Positions 1 to 6,654 of a DNA stretch of 6,654 bases are shown piece after piece. Made by a program: the position numbers and the translations under genes. The notes beneath the pieces are model-generated. The model searched no databases. It saw only the letters and a list, made by a program, of their open reading frames with translations, and was not told the origin of the DNA. Source of the stretch: a virus (Duplodnaviria; Heunggongvirae; Uroviricota; Caudoviricetes); IMG/VR virus record IMGVR_UViG_3300011952_000025. One strand, given 5' to 3'. Position 1 is the stretch's first letter, and each line of letters opens with the position of its first letter.

Positions 1-697
1 CCATACATATGTTCTGTCATTTTGGTGTTGAACTCGTTTGGTGTCCGAATTGGTAAAGAAGATATTTTGTTTAAAAAAGGAAGTGCTGTCCTCATCGAAT
101 ACAATTTAAAAGATCTTTTTTCGTCAAATACAGATCATCTAATGATCGTAGATGTTGAGGAGAAAACAGTTAATGATTTCTTTAAAAACTACACACTCTC
201 ACCTTTTTCTGTAAGAAGGTTTTATCCGGCATACTTGATAGTAGAATGTGAAGGTNNNNNNNNNNNNNNNNNNNNNNNNNNNNNNNNNNACCGTGGATGT
301 GGTTAGAAATCAAATATCACTTGCATGTCTTGCTGTCTTATCTTCAGAGAAAATAGTGCAAAGTTTTTTGTTCGGAAGTCTTAATAGCTTAGGTTGTAAA
401 GTTAAGGCTATTATTCACTCGGATATCTCAGCGTCATGGAGACTTTGTGATATATCTTCAAGATTATATATGAGCGAGAGTTTGTTAAAAAGAAAATTAA
501 AAGACGAAGGGGTATCGTTTAGTAGATTAATTCTTGAAGAACGAATGATGATGGCGCAAAGATTATTAATTTACAGTAACCATACTGTCGGCAAGGTGGC
601 GGGAATATGCGGGTATGACAATGCATCATATTTTGTAAGTGTTTTTAGAAGATATTTTGGTGTGCCTCCGCACCAATATTTATCAAGATTTTCTTAG
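1..697 (+). CDS. AraC/XylS-family transcriptional regulator; 5' end probably outside the window; interrupted by N-run 256-289
   Basis: C-terminal translation SESLLKRKLKDEGVSFSRLILEERMMMAQRLLIYSNHTVGKVAGICGYDNASYFVSVFRRYFGVPPHQYLSRFS is a typical AraC-type double helix-turn-helix, ending at TAG 695-697. Frame 1 is open from base 1 to the N-run; the post-gap part is in frame 2, so the true gap length is unknown. Visibly AT-rich compared with the phage structural genes. Confidence 0.75.
256..289. other. N-run (34 nt), unresolved sequence inside the AraC-family gene
   Basis: Literal run of n characters; reading frame differs on the two sides. Confidence 0.99.
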
Positions 698-888: not shown

Positions 889-1104
889 ATGAAATCCATG
901 GATAAGTTAACAACGGGCATCGCCTACGGCACCTCTGCAGGCAGTGCTGGCTACTGGTTTTTACAGTTGCTCGATAAAGTCACGCCCTCACAGTGGGCGG
1001 CAATAGGTGTATTGGGTAGTCTGGTATTTGGCATGCTGACGTATCTGACTAACCTTTATTTCAAGATTAAAGAAGACAGGCGTAAGGCTGAGAGAGGAGA
1101 GTAA
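889..1104 (+). CDS. S: Class II holin, phage 21 S-like pinholin with dual start (Met1 antiholin, Met4 holin)
   Basis: Translation [71 protein letters not shown] (72 aa). Shine-Dalgarno ggaggtgagg at 876-885. Two predicted transmembrane segments and a charged C-terminus. The MKSM dual-start motif matches the S21 71/68 arrangement as I recall it. Confidence 0.85.
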
Positions 1105-1108
1105 TCCA

Positions 1109-1453
1109 ATGACTCAAGTATACGAACTGGTTGTGAAAGGAGTCCGTAATTTTGAGAATAAAGTTGCGGTAACTTTAGCCTTACAGGACAAAGAACGCTT
1201 TGACGGTGAGATTTTTGACCTTGATATCACTATGGATCGTGTTGAAGGTGCTGCACTGGAGTTTTATGAGGCAGCAGCCAGAAGGAGAATCAGACAGGTG
1301 TTCTTGGATGTTGCTGCCGGGTTATGTGAAGGGGATGAGCAGTCGCCGGAAAAGCGCCCCATAATTTTAGAGGCGCAGAATGTGTGGATAACCTACAAAG
1401 GAAAGCTACCAGGAAGAATTACTGGTTATCTGAAGACTCCGCCGGAATGTTAA
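1109..1453 (+). CDS. Conserved lambdoid-prophage protein of unknown function located between holin and endolysin (YdfR-like by memory)
   Basis: 114-codon ORF starting 5 nt after the holin stop, preceded by gagaggaga. Soluble, charged protein MTQVYELVVKGVRNFENKV... Same strand and tight spacing as the lysis genes. Family assignment is from memory only. Confidence 0.6.
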   Translation: MTQVYELVVKGVRNFENKVAVTLALQDKERFDGEIFDLDITMDRVEGAALEFYEAAARRRIRQVFLDVAAGLCEGDEQSPEKRPIILEAQNVWITYKGKLPGRITGYLKTPPEC

Positions 1454-1691
1454 TTTTAACAGCATATTTCTCTTCCAGTAATGCCACCAGCCACTTGAAG
1501 GAATTTTGTTGTTCCTGGGACCATTTGGGGCTGTGTGATTCAAGCTGGAGCGATGCCAGTGTTGGTTGCATTTGTTCCCTGGGAATTGACAATGCCAGAT
1601 ATGAAAATGCGACAGTAAGGGCATTAACATCATCCCGAAGCCTGGAAATGCAGTCGAGCAACTCCTGAAGAGAAATGGTGTTATTGTCCAT
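1419..1691 (-). CDS. Hypothetical small protein (90 aa) antisense to the lysis operon
   Basis: ATG at 1689-1691 (minus) preceded by caagagga with ~7-nt spacing. Translation MDNNTISLQELLDCISRLRDDVNALTVAFSYLALSIPREQ... is helix-like and more protein-like than the overlapping + and - frame ORFs. Sits in a 343-bp spacer between the 1109-1453 gene and the endolysin, and overlaps the 3' end of 1109-1453 by 35 nt. Confidence 0.3.
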   Translation of the reverse strand: MDNNTISLQELLDCISRLRDDVNALTVAFSYLALSIPREQMQPTLASLQLESHSPKWSQEQQNSFKWLVALLEEKYAVKINIPAESSDNQ

Positions 1692-1796
1692 AAATAATCC
1701 TCTTGATTGTATTTACCTGTTCTCCGCCTGATTCAACAGGTTGGGACAGATAAACATATCCTGGGTTCAGAAATCGATAAATCCTGATAAATATCC

Positions 1797-2330
1797 ATGA
1801 ACGTAAAAGTCAAATACGGCCTGTCGGCTGCCGTTCTGGCGCTGATTGGTGCTGGTGCATCTGCTCCCCAGATACTTGACCAGTTTCTGGACGAAAAAGA
1901 AGGTAACCACACAATGGCATACCGTGATGGTTCCGGCATATGGACCATCTGTCGGGGTGCCACAGTGGTGGATGGAAAACCCGTTTTTCCCAATATGAAA
2001 CTGTCGAAGGAAAAATGCGACCAGGTTAACGCTATTGAGCGTGATAAGGCTCTGGCATGGGTGGAGCGCAATATTAAAGTACCACTGACCGAACCACAAA
2101 AAGCGGGTATCGCGTCATTTTGTCCCTATAACATTGGCCCCGGTAAGTGTTTTCCGTCGACGTTTTATAAACGGCTGAATGCTGGTGATCGTAAAGGTGC
2201 ATGCGAGGCGATTCGCTGGTGGATTAAGGACAGGGGGCGTGATTGCCGCATTCGTTCAAATAACTGTTACGGTCAGGTTATTCGTCGTGATCAGGAGAGC
2301 GCGTTAGTGTGCTGGGGGATCGACAGATAA
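1797..2330 (+). CDS. R: SAR endolysin (phage lysozyme, T4-lysozyme-like glycoside hydrolase with N-terminal signal-anchor-release domain)
   Basis: 177-aa translation MNVKVKYGLSAAVLALIGAGASAPQILDQFLDEKEGNHTMAYRDGSGIWTICRG... has a Gly/Ala-rich weakly hydrophobic N-terminal segment typical of SAR domains, followed by candidate lysozyme catalytic residues (the E of DEKEGN, the D of YRDGSG, the T of IWTICRG). First ATG after an in-frame stop. Confidence 0.88.
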   Translation: MNVKVKYGLSAAVLALIGAGASAPQILDQFLDEKEGNHTMAYRDGSGIWTICRGATVVDGKPVFPNMKLSKEKCDQVNAIERDKALAWVERNIKVPLTEPQKAGIASFCPYNIGPGKCFPSTFYKRLNAGDRKGACEAIRWWIKDRGRDCRIRSNNCYGQVIRRDQESALVCWGIDR

Positions 2331-2489: not shown

Positions 2490-2627
2490 GTGTTTGATTT
2501 TAGCAAACTGATTCGGGAGATTCGAACTATGGTTGAAAAATTATCCACCTGGAAATTCATTCTTTTCTGGCTGGTGTTTGCGATTATGGCCTCCGGTTAT
2601 TTCATTGCTCAGATACGCTGGTGGTGA
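2490..2627 (+). CDS. Hypothetical small membrane protein (about 45 aa from GTG 2490, or 32 aa from ATG 2529), translationally coupled to Rz
   Basis: Strong Shine-Dalgarno aaaggagaaa (2478-2487) precedes GTG 2490. Translation (M)[44 protein letters not shown] has one clear hydrophobic helix. Stop TGA 2625-2627 lies one base before the Rz ATG 2629. Missing from the ORF track, presumably because it is short. Confidence 0.35.
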
Positions 2628-2628
2628 A

Positions 2629-2997
2629 ATGAAACCGGTTCTGTATGCGGTGATTGTTATTCTACTGGTGGTCAGTGGTGCGCTGTTGCTGGCAATAGCC
2701 CATTACCGCGATAATGCCATCATCTACAAAGAGCAGAGAGATGATGCGAAGACAAAACTCAGCCAGGCGAACGCAGCCATTACTGACATGCAGCAGCGCC
2801 AGCGTGATGTTACTGCACTCGATGCAAAATACCTGAAGGAATTAGCTGATGCGAAAGCTGAAAATGATGCTCTTCGTGATGATATTGCCGCTGGTCGTCG
2901 TCGGTTGCACATCAGAGCAGTCTGTCAGAGCGTGCGTGAAGCCACCGCCGCCTCCGGCGTGGGTAATGCAGCCGCCCCCCGACTGGCAGACACCGCT
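2629..2997 (+). CDS. Rz: Rz i-spanin (inner-membrane spanin subunit), lambda-like allele, 3' end lost in N-run 2998-3007
   Basis: Translation [123 protein letters not shown]: N-terminal transmembrane segment plus coiled-coil periplasmic domain, closely resembling lambda Rz as I recall it. The ORF-track start at 2533 (TTG) is rejected in favour of ATG 2629. Confidence 0.85.
2849..2997 (+). CDS. Rz1: Rz1 o-spanin (outer-membrane lipoprotein) embedded in the +1 frame of Rz copy 1, truncated by N-run
   Basis: ATG 2849 preceded by aagga. Translation [50 protein letters not shown]... has a lipobox (VVGC) and a proline-rich tract like lambda Rz1. Confidence 0.7.
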
Positions 2998-3007
2998 NNN
3001 NNNNNNN
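2998..3007. other. N-run (10 nt) joining two overlapping, diverged Rz/Rz1 segments
   Basis: Literal n characters. Sequence on both sides encodes the same part of Rz (HYRDNAI... onward). Confidence 0.99.
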
Positions 3008-3008
3008 T

Positions 3009-3383
3009 AATCATTACCGTGATAACGCCATCGCCTACAAAGAACAGCGCGATAAGGCCGCATCCATTATCGCTGACATGCAGAAACGTCAAAGTGATGT
3101 AGCTGAACTCGATGCCAGATATACAAAGGAGCTTGCTGATGCTAACGCGACTATCGAAAGTCTTCGTGCTGATGTTTCTGCTGGGCGTAAGCGGCTGCGC
3201 GTCAAAGCAGTCTGTCCCGACATGCATAAAATCACCGCCGCCTCCGGCGTGGATGATGGCACCAGCCCCAGACTTACTGACGCCGCTCAACGGGATTATT
3301 TCACCCTCAGAGAGCGACTGATAATAATGCAAAAACAACTTGAAGGGGCACAGCTATACATTCGAGAGCAATGCCTCAGATAA
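3009..3383 (+). CDS. Rz: Rz i-spanin, second (diverged) allele, 5' end missing at the N-run; carries the complete Rz C-terminus
   Basis: Frame-3 translation from the gap: NHYRDNAIAYKEQRDKAASIIADMQKRQSDVAELDARYTKELADANATIESLRADVSAGRKRLRVKAVCPDMHKITAASGVDDGTSPRLTDAAQRDYFTLRERLIIMQKQLEGAQLYIREQCLR, stop TAA 3381-3383. Confidence 0.8.
   Translation, partial: NHYRDNAIAYKEQRDKAASIIADMQKRQSDVAELDARYTKELADANATIESLRADVSAGRKRLRVKAVCPDMHKITAASGVDDGTSPRLTDAAQRDYFTLRERLIIMQKQLEGAQLYIREQCLR
3139..3321 (+). CDS. Rz1: Rz1 o-spanin (outer-membrane lipoprotein) embedded in the +1 frame of Rz
   Basis: ATG 3139 preceded by aaggag (3126-3131). Translation MLTRLSKVFVLMFLLGVSGCASKQSVPTCIKSPPPPAWMMAPAPDLLTPLNGIISPSESD (60 aa) has a signal peptide, lipobox Cys and proline-rich region, and is wholly nested in Rz. 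Confidence 0.85.
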   Translation: MLTRLSKVFVLMFLLGVSGCASKQSVPTCIKSPPPPAWMMAPAPDLLTPLNGIISPSESD

Positions 3384-3700: not shown

Positions 3701-4121
3701 CTATATTAATGGTCTGTTATTTTCAACATCTTCCATGTACAAAAGATCGTGATCAAACGAATAGTAAAACCTTATGTTTTTATCTATATCTGTAATCCAG
3801 CGATAAACACCTGCTTTTGCTAAAGTGAGACGATATTGATGAAATNNNNNNNNNNTGAAATGTAGATTTACCTGATATAAGATTTCTGGCTGCTTCTTTA
3901 ATTAATTCTGGTTTCTTTGATGTGCTAACTTTCACAAGTCCTCTACTGCCTCGAACTAATAAAATATTATCATCATGAGTAATTAGTCTTATATTATCAG
4001 TAGCCAGATAATAAATATAATGCGCAATATTATGGCGTTTTAATTCGGAGTAAAACCATGGGAAGTATAAATTACTTCTAACGTGTTCGAATATCTCTTG
4101 AAAAATATCTGCCTGCTCCAT
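3701..4121 (-). CDS. Hypothetical AT-rich cargo (moron) protein, about 140 aa, interrupted by N-run 3846-3855; family unknown
   Basis: ATG at 4119-4121 (minus) preceded by aagagga. N-terminal translation MEQADIFQEIFEHVRSNLYFPWFYSELKRHNIAHYIYYLATDNIRLITHDDNILLVRGSRGLVKVSTSKKPELIKEAARNLISGKSTF. After the N-run the most protein-like frame continues FHQYRLTLAKAGVYRWITDIDKNIRFYYSFDHDLLYMEDVENNRPLI to the stop at 3701-3703; the literal-frame ORF in the track ends at 3780 instead. Opposite strand to the late operon and strongly AT-rich. Confidence 0.45.
3846..3855. other. N-run (10 nt) inside the cargo ORF
   Basis: Literal n characters. Confidence 0.99.
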
Positions 4122-5009: not shown

Positions 5010-6654
5010 ATGGGTTTTTCATCAGCCCGAAATTTGGGAAGGGACATATCGGCAGGATTTTCCCCACCACGTCGCATGCCGATTTCGGAGGCTGTTAAAA
5101 AATTCATGCGTGTTCCCAAGGGGGCTGGTAACTCGGTGCCATGGGATCCTGAACTGACACCCTACATCATNNNNNNNNNNATTGAGCCCATGAACTGCCT
5201 GGCATCGCGTGAATACGATGCGGTGATTTTTGTTGGTCCTGCGCGAACAGGGAAGACCATTGGTCTGATCGATGGATGGATTGTCTATACCATCGTTTGC
5301 GATCCTTCGGACATGCTCGTTGTGCAGATGACCGAAGATAAGGCCCGCGAGCATTCTAAAAAGCGCCTCGACAGAACGTTCAGAAGCAGTGCGGCGGTAA
5401 AGAAAAGAATGAGTCCACGTCGTAACGACAATAATGTCCATGATAAGACGTTCAGGGATGGCTCGTTCCTTAAAATTGGTTGGCCCTCGGTCAACATTAT
5501 GTCGTCGTCGGATTACCGGTTTGTCGCCTTAACCGATTACGACCGTTTTCCGGAGAATATCGACAGCGAGGGTGATGGTTTCTCCCTGGCCTCAAAACGT
5601 ACCACCACATTTATGTCCGCCGGGATGACTCTGGTGGAGAGCTCGCCGGGACGTGACATCTGCGACAGCAAATGGCGACGTAAGTCGCCTCATGAAGCGC
5701 CACCGACGACTGGTATTCTTTCCCTTTACAATCGTGGTGACCGCCGCCGCTGGTACTGGCCATGTCCGCACTGCGGTGAATATTTTCAGCCAGCTATGGA
5801 TGCCATGACCGGCTACCGTAATGAACCGGATCCCTTTAAAGCCAGTGAGGCGGCGTATCTACTTTGCCCGCACTGCAGCGGCATTATCACTGCGGAGAAA
5901 AAGCGTGAGCTCAATAGTGCAGGAGTCTGGTTGCGTGAAGGTCAGGTCATTGATCGTAACGGCAACGTTTCCGGTGAACCGCGCCGCTCCCGTATCGCCA
6001 GTTTCTGGATGGAAGGGCCAGCTGCTGCGTATCAGACCTGGGCGCAACTGGTTTACAAATTACTGACTGCAGAACAGGAGTATGAAGCGACAGGAAGCGA
6101 AGAAACACTCAGGGCGGTTATCAACACCGACTGGGGATTGCCTTATCTTCCTCGTGCCAGCATGGAGCAACGAAAAAGTGAACTGCTTGAGCAGCGGGCA
6201 GAGCCAGTTCCTTCCTGCAGTGTGCCGGATGGCGTTAATTTCCTTGTGGCGACAGTGGATGTGCAGGCGGGACGTCATCGCCGTTTTGTGGTTCAGGTAA
6301 CTGGCTATGGCAGTCGTGGCGAACGCTGGATTATTGATCGTTACAATATCACGCAGTCATTGCGCAGTGACTGCGACGGGGAGAGCCAGCGAATTGATCC
6401 GGCCAGCTATCCGGAAGACTGGGATGTCCTGCTGACGGATGTTTTTCATAAAAGCTGGCCGCTGGCCTCCGATCCTTCTCAACAAATGCGACTGATGGCA
6501 ATGGCGGTGGACTCCGGCGGTGAAGACGGGGTCACTGATAATGCCTATAAATTCTGGCGTCGTTGCCGTCGTGATGGCCTTGGTAAACGTATTTACCTGT
6601 TTAAGGGCGACAGCATCCGGCGCGCAAAACTGATCACCCGTACATTCCCTGATA
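5010..6654 (+). CDS. Terminase large subunit, GpA family (ATPase/nuclease), 3' end beyond window; interrupted by N-run 5171-5180
   Basis: aggagg (5000-5005) then ATG 5010. Frame 3 is open to the window end. Walker A-like VGPARTGKT; paired CxxC zinc-ribbon motifs WYWPCPHCGE and LLCPHCSG, as in lambda gpA; continuous GpA-like translation to base 6654. Confidence 0.9.
   Translation, partial: MGFSSARNLGRDISAGFSPPRRMPISEAVKKFMRVPKGAGNSVPWDPELTPYIXXXXIEPMNCLASREYDAVIFVGPARTGKTIGLIDGWIVYTIVCDPSDMLVVQMTEDKAREHSKKRLDRTFRSSAAVKKRMSPRRNDNNVHDKTFRDGSFLKIGWPSVNIMSSSDYRFVALTDYDRFPENIDSEGDGFSLASKRTTTFMSAGMTLVESSPGRDICDSKWRRKSPHEAPPTTGILSLYNRGDRRRWYWPCPHCGEYFQPAMDAMTGYRNEPDPFKASEAAYLLCPHCSGIITAEKKRELNSAGVWLREGQVIDRNGNVSGEPRRSRIASFWMEGPAAAYQTWAQLVYKLLTAEQEYEATGSEETLRAVINTDWGLPYLPRASMEQRKSELLEQRAEPVPSCSVPDGVNFLVATVDVQAGRHRRFVVQVTGYGSRGERWIIDRYNITQSLRSDCDGESQRIDPASYPEDWDVLLTDVFHKSWPLASDPSQQMRLMAMAVDSGGEDGVTDNAYKFWRRCRRDGLGKRIYLFKGDSIRRAKLITRTFPD
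5171..5180. other. N-run (10 nt) inside the terminase large-subunit gene
   Basis: Literal n characters; the frame happens to be the same on both sides. Confidence 0.99.

What the first reader, a model, noticed from the sequence alone, without database searches (positions are those of the whole stretch)
1419..1691. 90-codon ORF antisense to the lysis operon, inside a 343-bp spacer between the holin-adjacent gene and the endolysin
Lysis genes in lambdoid phages are normally tightly packed, but here 343 bp separate the 1109-1453 gene from the endolysin. The cleanest ORF in that spacer is on the minus strand, with a Shine-Dalgarno-like caagagga and an ATG at 1691. Its product looks like a small helical protein, whereas the competing frames are Cys/Trp/His-rich junk. 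A convergent gene here would overlap the 3' end of the upstream gene by 35 nt and be transcribed against late transcription, which would suit a lysogeny-expressed factor or a lysis regulator.
Basis: inference. Interest (0 to 1): 0.55.

Follow-up and report, generated by a model that had tools for sequence, protein, structure and literature searches.

The report
Reverse-strand cargo gene in prophage lysis cassette
The 90-codon reverse-strand ORF between the YdfR-like gene and the endolysin is a real, conserved gene for a small helical protein of unknown function, an add-on ("reverse moron") of a kind long known in lambdoid phages rather than a new type of lysis regulator.

Summary
In detail: a 343-bp gap, a 90-codon minus-strand ORF (1419-1691) with ATG and GAGG, and a 35-nt overlap with the YdfR-family gene. 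It is a real gene. Substitutions concentrate at its third codon positions, and it stays open in 41/44 variants while the shared-wobble plus frame is often broken. Relatives of 25-40% identity occur across Enterobacterales, including a chromosomal dinI-X-bssS gene in Serratia. It is already annotated as "hypothetical protein" (PGAP; phrog_2411) and sits in about 21% of complete E. coli genomes, BL21 included. It has no Pfam, NCBIfam, PADLOC, PDB or fold match. AlphaFold gives an acidic three-helix protein. About 308 bp (1445-1752) are extra DNA relative to sister phages. The same slot holds at least five other reverse-strand cargo genes behind one conserved promoter-like segment that empty sites lack. 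That segment and its leader hairpins also precede the annotated "reverse moron" genes of HK97, HK022 and ES18; in ES18 the convergent partner is again DUF1327. Homologues occur away from lysis genes, so a dedicated lysis regulator is unlikely. Function, promoter activity and expression remain untested.

The parts
1419..1691 (-). ORF90: coding sequence of a 90-aa acidic three-helix protein (phrog_2411; PGAP 'hypothetical protein', WP_069903859.1). The conserved core is residues 8-77. The last 8 or so codons read into sequence shared with ydfR.
   Evidence: Third-position bias is 130/217 events (p 1e-15). The frame is intact in 41/44 variants. Codon-usage LLR is +15.7 bits. Distant homologues at 25-40% identity. 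AF2 pLDDT 82.
1698..1703 (-). Shine-Dalgarno AGAGGA, 6 nt upstream of the ATG. The GAGG core (1699-1702) is invariant in the 44 unique sequences.
   Evidence: In the broader set, three minority variants (5 of 39 unique sequences) carry 1702 G>C/A (CGAGG or CAAGG), leaving AGG.
1692..1752 (-). Cargo-specific 5' leader of ORF90. It is a diverged version of the canonical reverse-moron leader: the HP1 segment is missing, and a local hairpin at 1714-1752 is not conserved in relatives.
1753..1781 (-). Candidate sigma-70 promoter (-35 TTTATC 1781-1776, 17 nt, -10 TATGTT 1758-1753), divergent from the endolysin start. It matches only 7/12 of consensus.
   Evidence: Invariant in relatives. Present in 71/96 junctions, covering every cargo type except the doubtful 79-aa one. 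Replaced in 24 of the 26 sites without a called cargo ORF; the remaining two include L304, which keeps TATGTT and holds a 2H10-type cargo whose ATG is mutated. Homologous to the region upstream of HK97 gp23, HK022 gp23 and ES18 gp25. Below the scan threshold. Activity not tested.
1445..1752 (.). About 308 bp of extra DNA (the cargo) relative to sister phages 2H10 and Perceval. Relative to K-12 Qin the whole of 1315-1786 is replaced.
1349..1375 (-). Weak candidate terminator for the reverse transcript: stem GCGCCUC/GGGGCGC followed by UUUU, inside the ydfR coding sequence, 44 nt after the ORF90 stop.
   Evidence: -13 kcal/mol, z -2.2. Not found by the terminator scan. Proposed by analogy with the annotated terminators of HK97 gp23 and ES18 gp25.
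1109..1453 (+). YdfR-family (DUF1327) gene, 114 aa, the convergent partner. It is mosaic: the N-terminal 69 or so codons are shared with Qin ydfR, and residues 1-112 with the 183-aa version in phage 2H10.
1797..2330 (+). Endolysin (Phage_lysozyme, rrrQ-like) downstream of the slot.
889..1104 (+). Phage-21-type class II holin (EssD).

Best explanation
ORF90 is a genuine protein-coding gene carried as a 'reverse moron': a small, self-contained transcription unit inserted backwards into the late operon of a Qin/Rac-like lambdoid prophage, at the junction between the DUF1327/YdfR gene and the endolysin.

Shown here:
- It is under protein-level selection on the minus strand.
- It belongs to a small-protein family spread through Enterobacterales, with chromosomal members.
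- It is extra DNA relative to sister phages.
- Its slot holds alternative reverse-strand cargo genes behind one shared upstream segment.
- That segment is homologous to the region upstream of the annotated reverse morons of HK97, HK022 and ES18.

Inferred:
- Transcription starts at the weak sigma-70-like promoter at 1753-1781 and runs away from the endolysin.
- Translation uses the conserved SD and ATG.
- The transcript ends inside the 3' part of ydfR.
- With the late operon silent in a lysogen, the gene can be expressed without convergent interference.

The product is a soluble, acidic (pI 4.6) three-helix protein with no catalytic signature. My best guess, at about 20-25%, is that it acts by binding a host or phage protein as a lysogen-expressed accessory factor acquired from a host gene (Serratia-type dinI-X-bssS), not as part of the lysis machinery.
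For: Coding strand.
- 217 substitution events along a minimum spanning tree fall 52/35/130 on ORF90 codon positions 1/2/3 (p 1e-15).
- dN/dS is 0.38, against 0.41 for ydfR.
- The frame is open in 41/44 unique sequences. The shared-wobble plus frame is broken in about 12/44 and has no conserved start.
- Stop-creating events number 1 on the minus frame and 10 on the plus frame.
- Mean BLOSUM62 of replacements is +0.28 for ORF90 and -0.66 for the plus frame.
- The codon-usage LLR is +15.7 bits for ORF90 and -3.8 for the plus frame.
- There are no indels across 801 bp in 44 variants.

Family.
- HMM searches recover 81-99-aa relatives at 25-40% identity in Serratia, Sodalis, Chania, Gibbsiella and Citrobacter, with a conserved ELL..I..LR..VN.L.VAFSYLAF...ES motif.
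- AF2 gives three helices at pLDDT 82.

Moron anatomy.
- Qin lacks the insert.
- The insert bounds are 1445-1752.
- Of 96 junctions, 30 hold ORF90. The others hold 88-, 104-, 91-, 210- and 105-aa reverse ORFs or nothing.
- The -35/-10 pair is present in 71/96 junctions. It is replaced in 24 of the 26 junctions where no cargo ORF was called.
- The shared promoter and leader match those upstream of HK97 gp23 ('reverse moron product'), HK022 gp23 and ES18 gp25. ES18 gp25 converges on a DUF1327 gene, as ORF90 does here.

Independence from lysis genes.
- Homologues lie between tail genes L and M and upstream of another holin.
- Others lie next to an M15 endolysin cassette and beside a truncated ydfR.
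- In Serratia the homologue lies at chromosomal dinI-X-bssS.
Against: - There are no expression data of any kind.
- The promoter matches only 7/12 of consensus, below the scan threshold. It overlaps the endolysin's own upstream region, which could explain its conservation.
- No clear intrinsic terminator exists, only a weak hairpin followed by UUUU.
- GC content does not differ from the flanks.
- In the window the canonical leader hairpin HP1 is missing.
- Many database copies are frameshifted or truncated, so the gene is dispensable in many strains.
- dN/dS alone cannot separate ORF90 from the shared-wobble plus frame (0.38 against 0.27). The count of discriminating substitutions is only 29 against 17 (p 0.05).
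- The proposed function has no direct support.
Confidence: 0.6

Rival explanations
1. ORF90 works together with the convergent YdfR-family protein as a two-gene module, for example a regulator/partner or toxin-antitoxin-like pair. The link could run through RNase E or RNA, which Qin YdfR is reported to bind.
For: - The convergent pairing with a DUF1327 gene recurs in two unrelated genomic positions: the lysis cassette here, and ES18 gp24/gp25 between tail genes M and L.
- HK97 and HK022 also carry a forward moron and a reverse moron as an overlapping convergent pair.
- The 3' ends overlap by 35 nt here.
- The N-terminal 72 residues of YdfR bind the RNase E catalytic domain, and YdfR co-purifies with RNA (PMC13232886).
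Against: - ORF90 is kept intact where only the last 41 codons of ydfR remain (L086).
- The Citrobacter, Serratia, Sodalis and tail-cluster homologues have no DUF1327 neighbour.
- The same YdfR (identical through residue 112) is paired with unrelated cargo in phage 2H10.
- There are no PADLOC hits.
Confidence: 0.15
2. ORF90, or its antisense transcript, regulates lysis. It could damp leaky holin/ydfR expression in the lysogen or tune lysis timing, through convergent transcription or RNA pairing with the late mRNA, or through a protein inhibitor.
For: - The gene lies between holin/ydfR and the endolysin, and its transcript would be complementary to the late mRNA over ydfR.
- The slot is used repeatedly for reverse-strand genes.
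- A Citrobacter homologue also sits next to a holin.
Against: - Family members occur in tail clusters and in chromosomal loci with no lysis genes.
- Strong protein-level constraint shows that the protein, not merely the act of transcription, is selected.
- Phages with empty slots or other cargo keep the same lysis genes.
- No unusual RNA structure is present (z -1.3 and -1.55).
Confidence: 0.1
3. There is no minus-strand gene. The ORF is the antisense shadow of a plus-strand coding sequence (ORF94, or the decayed or frameshifted 3' extension of a longer YdfR), or a chance ORF that pipelines have annotated.
For: - The plus frame 1384-1668 shares wobble positions with ORF90 and has an even lower dN/dS (0.27).
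- Longer YdfR versions exist (183 aa in 2H10; phrog_2091, phrog_1085).
- 1% of shuffles give an ORF this long.
Against: - The plus frame carries stops in about 12/44 variants, lacks a conserved start, has an odd Cys/Ser-rich composition, and has a negative codon LLR.
- It hits no PHROG.
- The 2H10 extension has no similarity to any frame of the spacer.
- Minus-frame homologues at 25-40% identity in other genera cannot be shadows.
Confidence: 0.03

Closest known systems
'Reverse morons' of lambdoid phages: HK97 gp23 ('reverse moron product', convergent with moron gp22), HK022 gp23 ('srb', convergent with gp22), Salmonella phage ES18 gp25 (convergent with DUF1327 protein gp24). These are GenBank annotations from the work of Juhala et al. 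2000 and Casjens et al. 2005; the moron concept is reviewed in PMC3594210.
   Same: - A small gene inserted backwards into the late operon, convergent with and overlapping a small forward gene.
- That forward gene is DUF1327 in ES18, as it is here.
- The gene is preceded by a homologous promoter-like segment (ATATCAGG...CCCTGG-TATGTT/TTAATG).
- It is absent from related phages.
   Different: - The location is the lysis cassette (ydfR/endolysin junction) rather than the tail cluster.
- The ORF90 protein is not demonstrably homologous to gp23 of HK97 or HK022 (hhalign E 0.29; profile-profile E 0.14). It is only marginally similar to ES18 gp25.
- The window's leader has lost the conserved HP1 hairpin.
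- Its terminator is weak.
HK97 gp15 moron and the host YebO family (Cumby et al. 2012; PMC3594210)
   Same: A small prophage moron protein whose closest distant relatives are chromosomal Enterobacterales genes of unknown function. That pattern suggests capture of a host gene followed by divergence.
   Different: - gp15 is an inner-membrane superinfection-exclusion protein in forward orientation.
- ORF90 is predicted soluble and acidic, lies in reverse orientation, and has no known phenotype.
Lambda bor (reverse-oriented, lysogen-expressed gene next to the lysis genes; from my own knowledge)
   Same: It is transcribed against the late operon, lies adjacent to the lysis cassette, and is expressed from the prophage.
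   Different: Bor is an outer-membrane lipoprotein located downstream of Rz. ORF90 has no signal peptide or lipobox and no sequence relation to Bor.
phrog_2411 / RefSeq 'hypothetical protein' WP_069903859.1, WP_000370546.1
   Same: ORF90 is a full-length member (E 3e-53).
   Different: These entries carry no function, no Pfam or NCBIfam model, and no link to the chromosomal Serratia-type relatives found here.

Membership tests
Moron (independent add-on transcription unit; Juhala et al. 2000, PMC3594210) | Extra DNA that is absent at the same position in related phages | tested here: met
   K-12 Qin has ydfR overlapping rrrQ. Homology to Qin breaks at 1314 and resumes at 1787. Relative to 2H10 and Perceval the unique part is 1445-1752. 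26/96 junctions had no reverse ORF of 50 aa or more called.
Moron | Own promoter | tested here: inconclusive
   The only candidate is a 7/12 sigma-70 match (TTTATC-17-TATGTT, 1753-1781), and nothing reaches the 9/12 threshold. It is conserved, it occurs in 71/96 junctions, and it is replaced in 24 of the 26 junctions without a called cargo ORF. It is homologous to the upstream regions of annotated reverse morons. Activity not testable here.
Moron | Own factor-independent terminator | tested here: inconclusive
   The scan finds no minus-strand terminator. A weak hairpin followed by UUUU lies at 1349-1375. The HK97 and ES18 counterparts have clear terminators.
Moron | Base composition different from the flanking genes | tested here: not met
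   GC is 0.40-0.46 across the insert and 0.41-0.51 in the flanks.
Moron | Expressed from the repressed prophage | not testable with these tools
   No transcriptome or proteome data were available, and the literature searches found nothing on this gene.
phrog_2411 | Full-length match to the family profile | tested here: met
   E 3.4e-53, residues 1-90 on profile positions 1-90 of 90.
HK022 Srb (gp23) / Perceval 79-aa family | Detectable sequence homology | tested here: not met
   The single-sequence hhalign gave E 5.9e-4 and did not hold up. Profile against profile gives E 0.14. The HMM score is 10.6 bits, inside the range of shuffled decoys.
ES18 gp25 / L270 105-aa family | Detectable sequence homology | tested here: inconclusive
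   hhalign gives E 6.8e-4 over the N-terminal 30 residues only. BLASTP of P0068 against L270 gives E 0.005, and the HMM scores are 7-11 bits.
Known anti-phage defence or toxin-antitoxin proteins (PADLOC) | Match to any defence-system model | tested here: not met
   No hits for ORF90, YdfR, two other cargo proteins or two distant homologues.
DUF1327/YdfR (for the convergent neighbour 1109-1453) | Pfam PF07041 above the gathering score | tested here: met
   142.4 bits against a cut-off of 25.

The most novel reading that the evidence does not exclude
The reverse-strand slot is part of a mobile 'promoter-leader-cargo' cassette system. In this reading a conserved promoter plus two leader hairpins drives a set of fast-diverging small helical proteins. 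HP1 has an invariant GUGGGA-type loop and covarying stems; HP2 has a GGAUGGCUGAUUAA loop. The cassette moves between late-operon positions (tail I/J, tail M/L, ydfR/endolysin), often together with a DUF1327/YdfR partner reported to bind RNase E and RNA. ORF90 would then be one allele of a diversifying lysogen-expressed system, such as superinfection exclusion or host-RNA-decay control, and the leader RNA would be a regulatory element that nobody has described.
Probability: 0.12. Interest if true: 0.65.

Novelty: new member of a known kind. Interest (0 to 1): 0.35.

Why it matters
The gene sits in about one in five complete E. coli genomes, including the workhorse BL21 and some Stx phages, yet has no name, model or function. 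Recognising it as a reverse moron with chromosomal relatives in Serratia makes it a tractable candidate for a lysogen-expressed accessory function. It also corrects the tempting reading of it as a lysis regulator. The wider by-product may be more useful than the gene itself. One conserved promoter-leader precedes many different reverse cargo genes, both at this slot and in the HK97, HK022 and ES18 tail clusters. That offers a handle for finding and studying such cargo systematically.

Tried and rejected
- dN/dS alone could not separate ORF90 from the shared-wobble plus frame. Stop codons, replacement quality and codon usage were needed.
- The 'degraded 3' end of a longer YdfR' idea is rejected. 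The 183-aa 2H10 extension matches no frame of the spacer, and the plus frame hits no PHROG.
- The CCTGTT-N13-AACAGG hairpin in the window's leader is broken in most relatives.
- There is no LexA box upstream of the window gene or of the two chromosomal homologues examined (Serratia-type L188/L189 and Sodalis L181). One CTG-N10-CAG match in L179 is the HP1 stem.
- Rfam has no family for the window or for the canonical leader.
- An identity with the AgvB-type prophage anti-sRNAs was considered and dropped. Those lie at the PR' moron site, not here (PMC4104026).
- HK022 put RNA could not be compared, because the paper's text holds no sequence.
- Homology of ORF90 to HK022 Srb looked promising but failed with a proper profile.
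- The one genome-contig scan was wasted on a pattern too short for 596 Gb and returned chance hits.
- Literature searches for YdfR/DUF1327, accession numbers, ybl58, phrog_2411 and srb found nothing on this gene.

Full report
**What is in the window.**
- The window is the late-gene region of a Qin/Rac-like lambdoid prophage of E. coli.
- It holds an AraC-type gene (248-697) and a terminator (767-788).
- Next come a phage-21-type holin (889-1104, PF04971) and a DUF1327/YdfR-family gene (1109-1453).
- A 343-bp gap follows, then a Phage_lysozyme endolysin (1797-2330), Rz/Rz1-like ORFs and packaging genes.
- An identical 801-bp stretch occurs in several complete E. coli chromosomes.

- The minus-strand ORF runs 1691 to 1419: ATG, 90 codons, TAA.
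- AGAGGA lies 6 nt upstream of the ATG.
- The last 35 nt overlap the 3' end of ydfR.
- In K-12 Qin the same three lysis genes are packed tightly, with ydfR overlapping rrrQ by 4 nt. The gap is therefore a real departure from that arrangement.
- About 1% of shuffles of 1380-1800 contain an ATG ORF this long, so length alone proves little.

**Is it a gene, and on which strand?** I collected 80 IMG/VR loci and several genomic loci holding relatives.
- Forty-four unique 801-bp versions align without a single internal indel.
- In the part of ORF90 that does not overlap ydfR, variable columns fall 15/12/32 on codon positions 1/2/3.
- Counted as events along a minimum spanning tree, the split is 52/35/130 (p 1e-15).
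- This periodicity is shared by the plus-strand frame 1384-1668, whose wobble positions coincide with those of ORF90. Nei-Gojobori dN/dS is low for both frames (0.38 and 0.27) and 0.6-1.9 for the other four. Other criteria were therefore needed.
- ORF90 is open with the same ATG in 41/44 variants. One has an internal stop and two lose the last codon. The plus frame carries stops in about 12/44 and has no conserved start.
- Stop-creating events number 1 against 10.
- Substitutions that are synonymous only in ORF90 outnumber the converse 29 to 17 (p 0.05). The converse cases are mostly K/R, D/E and N/S exchanges.
- Mean BLOSUM62 of replacements is +0.28 for ORF90 and -0.66 for the plus frame.
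- A codon-usage log-likelihood ratio (sense model against shared-wobble antisense model) gives +15.7 bits for ORF90 and -3.8 for the plus frame. Flanking genes score +18 to +63.

**The decisive evidence is distant homology.**
- A profile search of 1.84 billion representative proteins, followed by a second profile search, found relatives of 81-99 aa at 25-40% identity.
- They carry a conserved ELL..I..LR..VN.L.VAFSYLAF...ES...Q..F..LA.EL pattern.
- They occur in many Serratia species and in Sodalis, Acerihabitans, Chania, Gibbsiella, Chimaeribacter and Citrobacter.
- A shadow ORF cannot be conserved like that.
- The plus-strand ORF hits no PHROG. The C-terminal extension of the 183-aa YdfR of phage 2H10 has no similarity to any frame of the spacer. 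The 'decayed longer gene' reading is rejected.

**Status in databases.**
- PGAP already annotates the ORF as 'hypothetical protein' on the minus strand (WP_069903859.1).
- The depositors of phages Chlobot and vB_EcoS-783R2 do the same.
- It is a full-length member of phrog_2411, function unknown.
- The insert-specific 308 bp occur in 1125 of 5426 complete E. coli genomes but in only 3 of 50,697 phage records.
- E. coli BL21 carries an intact copy in its Rac prophage.
- Many database copies are frameshifted or truncated, as expected for dispensable cargo in decaying prophages.
- No paper in the library mentions it.

**The protein.**
- It is acidic (pI 4.6, net charge about -5), with no signal peptide and no hydrophobic segment.
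- AlphaFold2 with a 49-sequence alignment gives three helices (8-35, 38-52, 59-77) at mean pLDDT 82, with a disordered tail.
- The tail (residues 83-90) is encoded by sequence shared with ydfR of phage 2H10. The 35-nt overlap therefore looks like read-through of the inserted gene into resident sequence.
- There is no Pfam, NCBIfam, PADLOC or PDB sequence match.

**What kind of element it is.**
- Relative to K-12 Qin, window 1315-1786 is replaced.
- Relative to phages 2H10 and Perceval, only 1445-1752 is unique.
- Those two phages hold different reverse-strand ORFs at the same place: 88 aa (phrog_2572) and 79 aa (phrog_21218). Both also converge on variant C-termini of YdfR.
- I fetched 120 IMG/VR loci with the 27-mer that spans the shared junction and the endolysin start. 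I classified the 96 that have enough upstream DNA:
  - 30 hold ORF90.
  - 17 hold the 2H10 type.
  - 8 hold a 104-aa ORF.
  - 5 hold a 91-aa ORF.
  - 3 hold a 210-aa ORF.
  - 1 holds a 105-aa ORF.
  - 6 hold a doubtful 79-aa ORF.
  - 26 had no reverse ORF of 50 aa or more called.
- Every convincing cargo type follows the same segment, in reverse sense ATTTATCAGGATTTATCGG...CCCTGGATATGTT. This contains a weak sigma-70-like promoter (TTTATC, 17 nt, TATGTT; window 1781-1753).
- The hexamer pair is present in 71/96 junctions. Of the 26 junctions without a called cargo ORF, 24 have the -10 replaced (AGGTTT or CAGCTT). The remaining two include L304, which keeps TATGTT and holds a 2H10-type cargo whose ATG is mutated.

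**Link to known reverse morons.**
- A blastn search with the canonical leader hit intergenic DNA in HK97, HK022, Salmonella phages ES18, Oslo and SPN3UB, and phage Evi.
- In the three records opened (HK97, HK022 and ES18), the match lies immediately upstream of genes that the original annotators called morons.
- These are HK97 gp23 ('reverse moron product', convergent with moron gp22), HK022 gp23 ('srb', convergent with gp22) and ES18 gp25. ES18 gp25 converges on gp24, a DUF1327 protein.
- The arrangement in the window is therefore the lysis-cassette version of a known tail-cluster module: a DUF1327 gene converging on a small reverse gene behind this promoter.
- Other homologues of ORF90 also sit in reverse orientation at further late-operon positions: between tail genes L and M, near the terminase and upstream of a Citrobacter holin.
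- In Serratia the homologue is a chromosomal gene between dinI and bssS, in both loci examined.
- ORF90 persists next to a different endolysin cassette and next to a ydfR reduced to its last 41 codons.
- This independence argues against a dedicated lysis role and against an obligate partnership with YdfR.

**Caveats on the moron reading.**
- The promoter is weak and below the tool's threshold. It also overlaps the endolysin's upstream region.
- No minus-strand terminator passes the scan. A hairpin followed by UUUU at 1349-1375 is only a candidate, whereas the HK97 and ES18 counterparts are clear.
- GC content is unremarkable.
- The spacer RNA is not unusually structured on either strand.
- In the window the canonical leader is degenerate. 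The segment that forms hairpin HP1 in other cargo types is absent, and the local hairpin is not conserved.

**Relations among cargo proteins.**
- HK022 Srb and the Perceval 79-aa protein are related (BLASTP E 3e-7). ES18 gp25 and the 105-aa cargo are related (E 4e-31).
- ORF90's apparent similarity to Srb disappeared when a 12-sequence Srb-family profile was used (E 0.14).
- Similarity to the ES18 gp25 type is marginal.
- I therefore do not file ORF90 with any named moron protein.

**Verdict.**
- It is a reverse moron of unknown function, already annotated as hypothetical and common in E. coli prophages, with previously unremarked chromosomal relatives.
- Most likely it is an independently transcribed, lysogen-expressed accessory gene whose small helical product acts by binding another macromolecule. 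That last step is inference only.
- The interest of the gene itself is modest.
- The shared promoter-leader cassette and the diversity of cargo at this slot are the more intriguing leads.

Noticed in passing
L182 4900-5003; L179 4900-5003; L438 (HK022) 1470-1605; L437 (HK97) 1470-1604; L439 (ES18) 1470-1596; IMG/VR junction loci such as L212 and L267: A conserved promoter plus two-hairpin leader precedes many different reverse-strand cargo genes. HP1 is an 8-bp stem with a conserved GUGGG(A) loop. In 10 sequences, 95% of cells pair, 4 of 8 pairs change on both sides, and G-U wobbles fall on the cargo-sense strand; the covariation score was reached by 1 of 500 shuffles. HP2 has covarying stems around a GGAUGGCUGAUUAA loop just before the SD. 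There is no Rfam match. The GGA motifs in both loops and in the SD suggested CsrA to me, but that is only an idea.
   Followed up: partly
window 1445-1800 and loci L197-L316: The ydfR/endolysin junction is a cargo hot spot. It holds at least six different reverse ORF types (90, 88, 104, 91, 210 and 105 aa), and 26 of 96 junctions had no reverse ORF called. Some cargo-less sites (L206, L228, L237, L306, L315) keep the promoter and a short scar, AAGTCTTCAG-GCCAGCGGTGG-AGTCTTCAG. The 9-bp direct repeat AGTCTTCAG flanks the position where cargo sits (leader copy plus ydfR 3' end, window 1430-1438 on the plus strand). This hints at repeat-mediated gain or loss.
   Followed up: partly
window 1109-1453; L004 4055-4366; L096 1559-2110; L097 1559-1873; L283: YdfR is mosaic. 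Its N-terminal 70 or so residues are conserved, which is the part reported to bind the RNase E catalytic domain (PMC13232886). At least five different C-termini exist (103, 104, 114, about 117 and 183 aa; further PHROGs of 174 and 296 positions).
   Followed up: partly
L196 3474-3746 (E. coli BL21, NZ_CP170101.1 1371320-1371592): BL21 carries an intact 90-aa copy (WP_000370546.1) in an essD-ydfR-ORF90-rrrQ cassette inside its Rac prophage, next to trkG. This is a convenient strain for testing expression and function.
   Followed up: yes
L188 5001-5279; L191 4001-4282: In Serratia the family member is a chromosomal gene in the conserved order rne-pyrC-dinI-X-bssS-solA. It follows the dinI terminator, so it probably has its own promoter. 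No LexA box was seen upstream of it in L188.
   Followed up: partly
window 256-289, 2998-3007, 3846-3855, 5171-5180: There are runs of N (34, 10, 10 and 10 bases), so the window comes from a scaffold or is masked. None touches the finding.
   Followed up: no
window 2533-3383: The Rz region looks duplicated. Two Rz-like ORFs (2533-3102 and 3078-3383) each have an embedded Rz1-like lipoprotein ORF (2849-3010, 3112-3321), and an N run sits at the joint. The identical-flank genome (L001) has only one 'lysis protein' here.
   Followed up: no
window 248-697 and 767-788: An AraC-family regulator gene, followed by a strong intrinsic terminator, lies just upstream of the holin. It is probably another moron in the PR'-to-lysis region.
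   Followed up: no
L089, L091 (Stx-phage contexts): ORF90 also occurs in Shiga-toxin prophages, in the order stxA-stxB-PmrD-like-holin-DUF1327-ORF90. In some it is followed by a second, unrelated lysis cassette (Phage_holin_8, holin_3_7, Peptidase_M15_4) or by an IS66 element.
   Followed up: no
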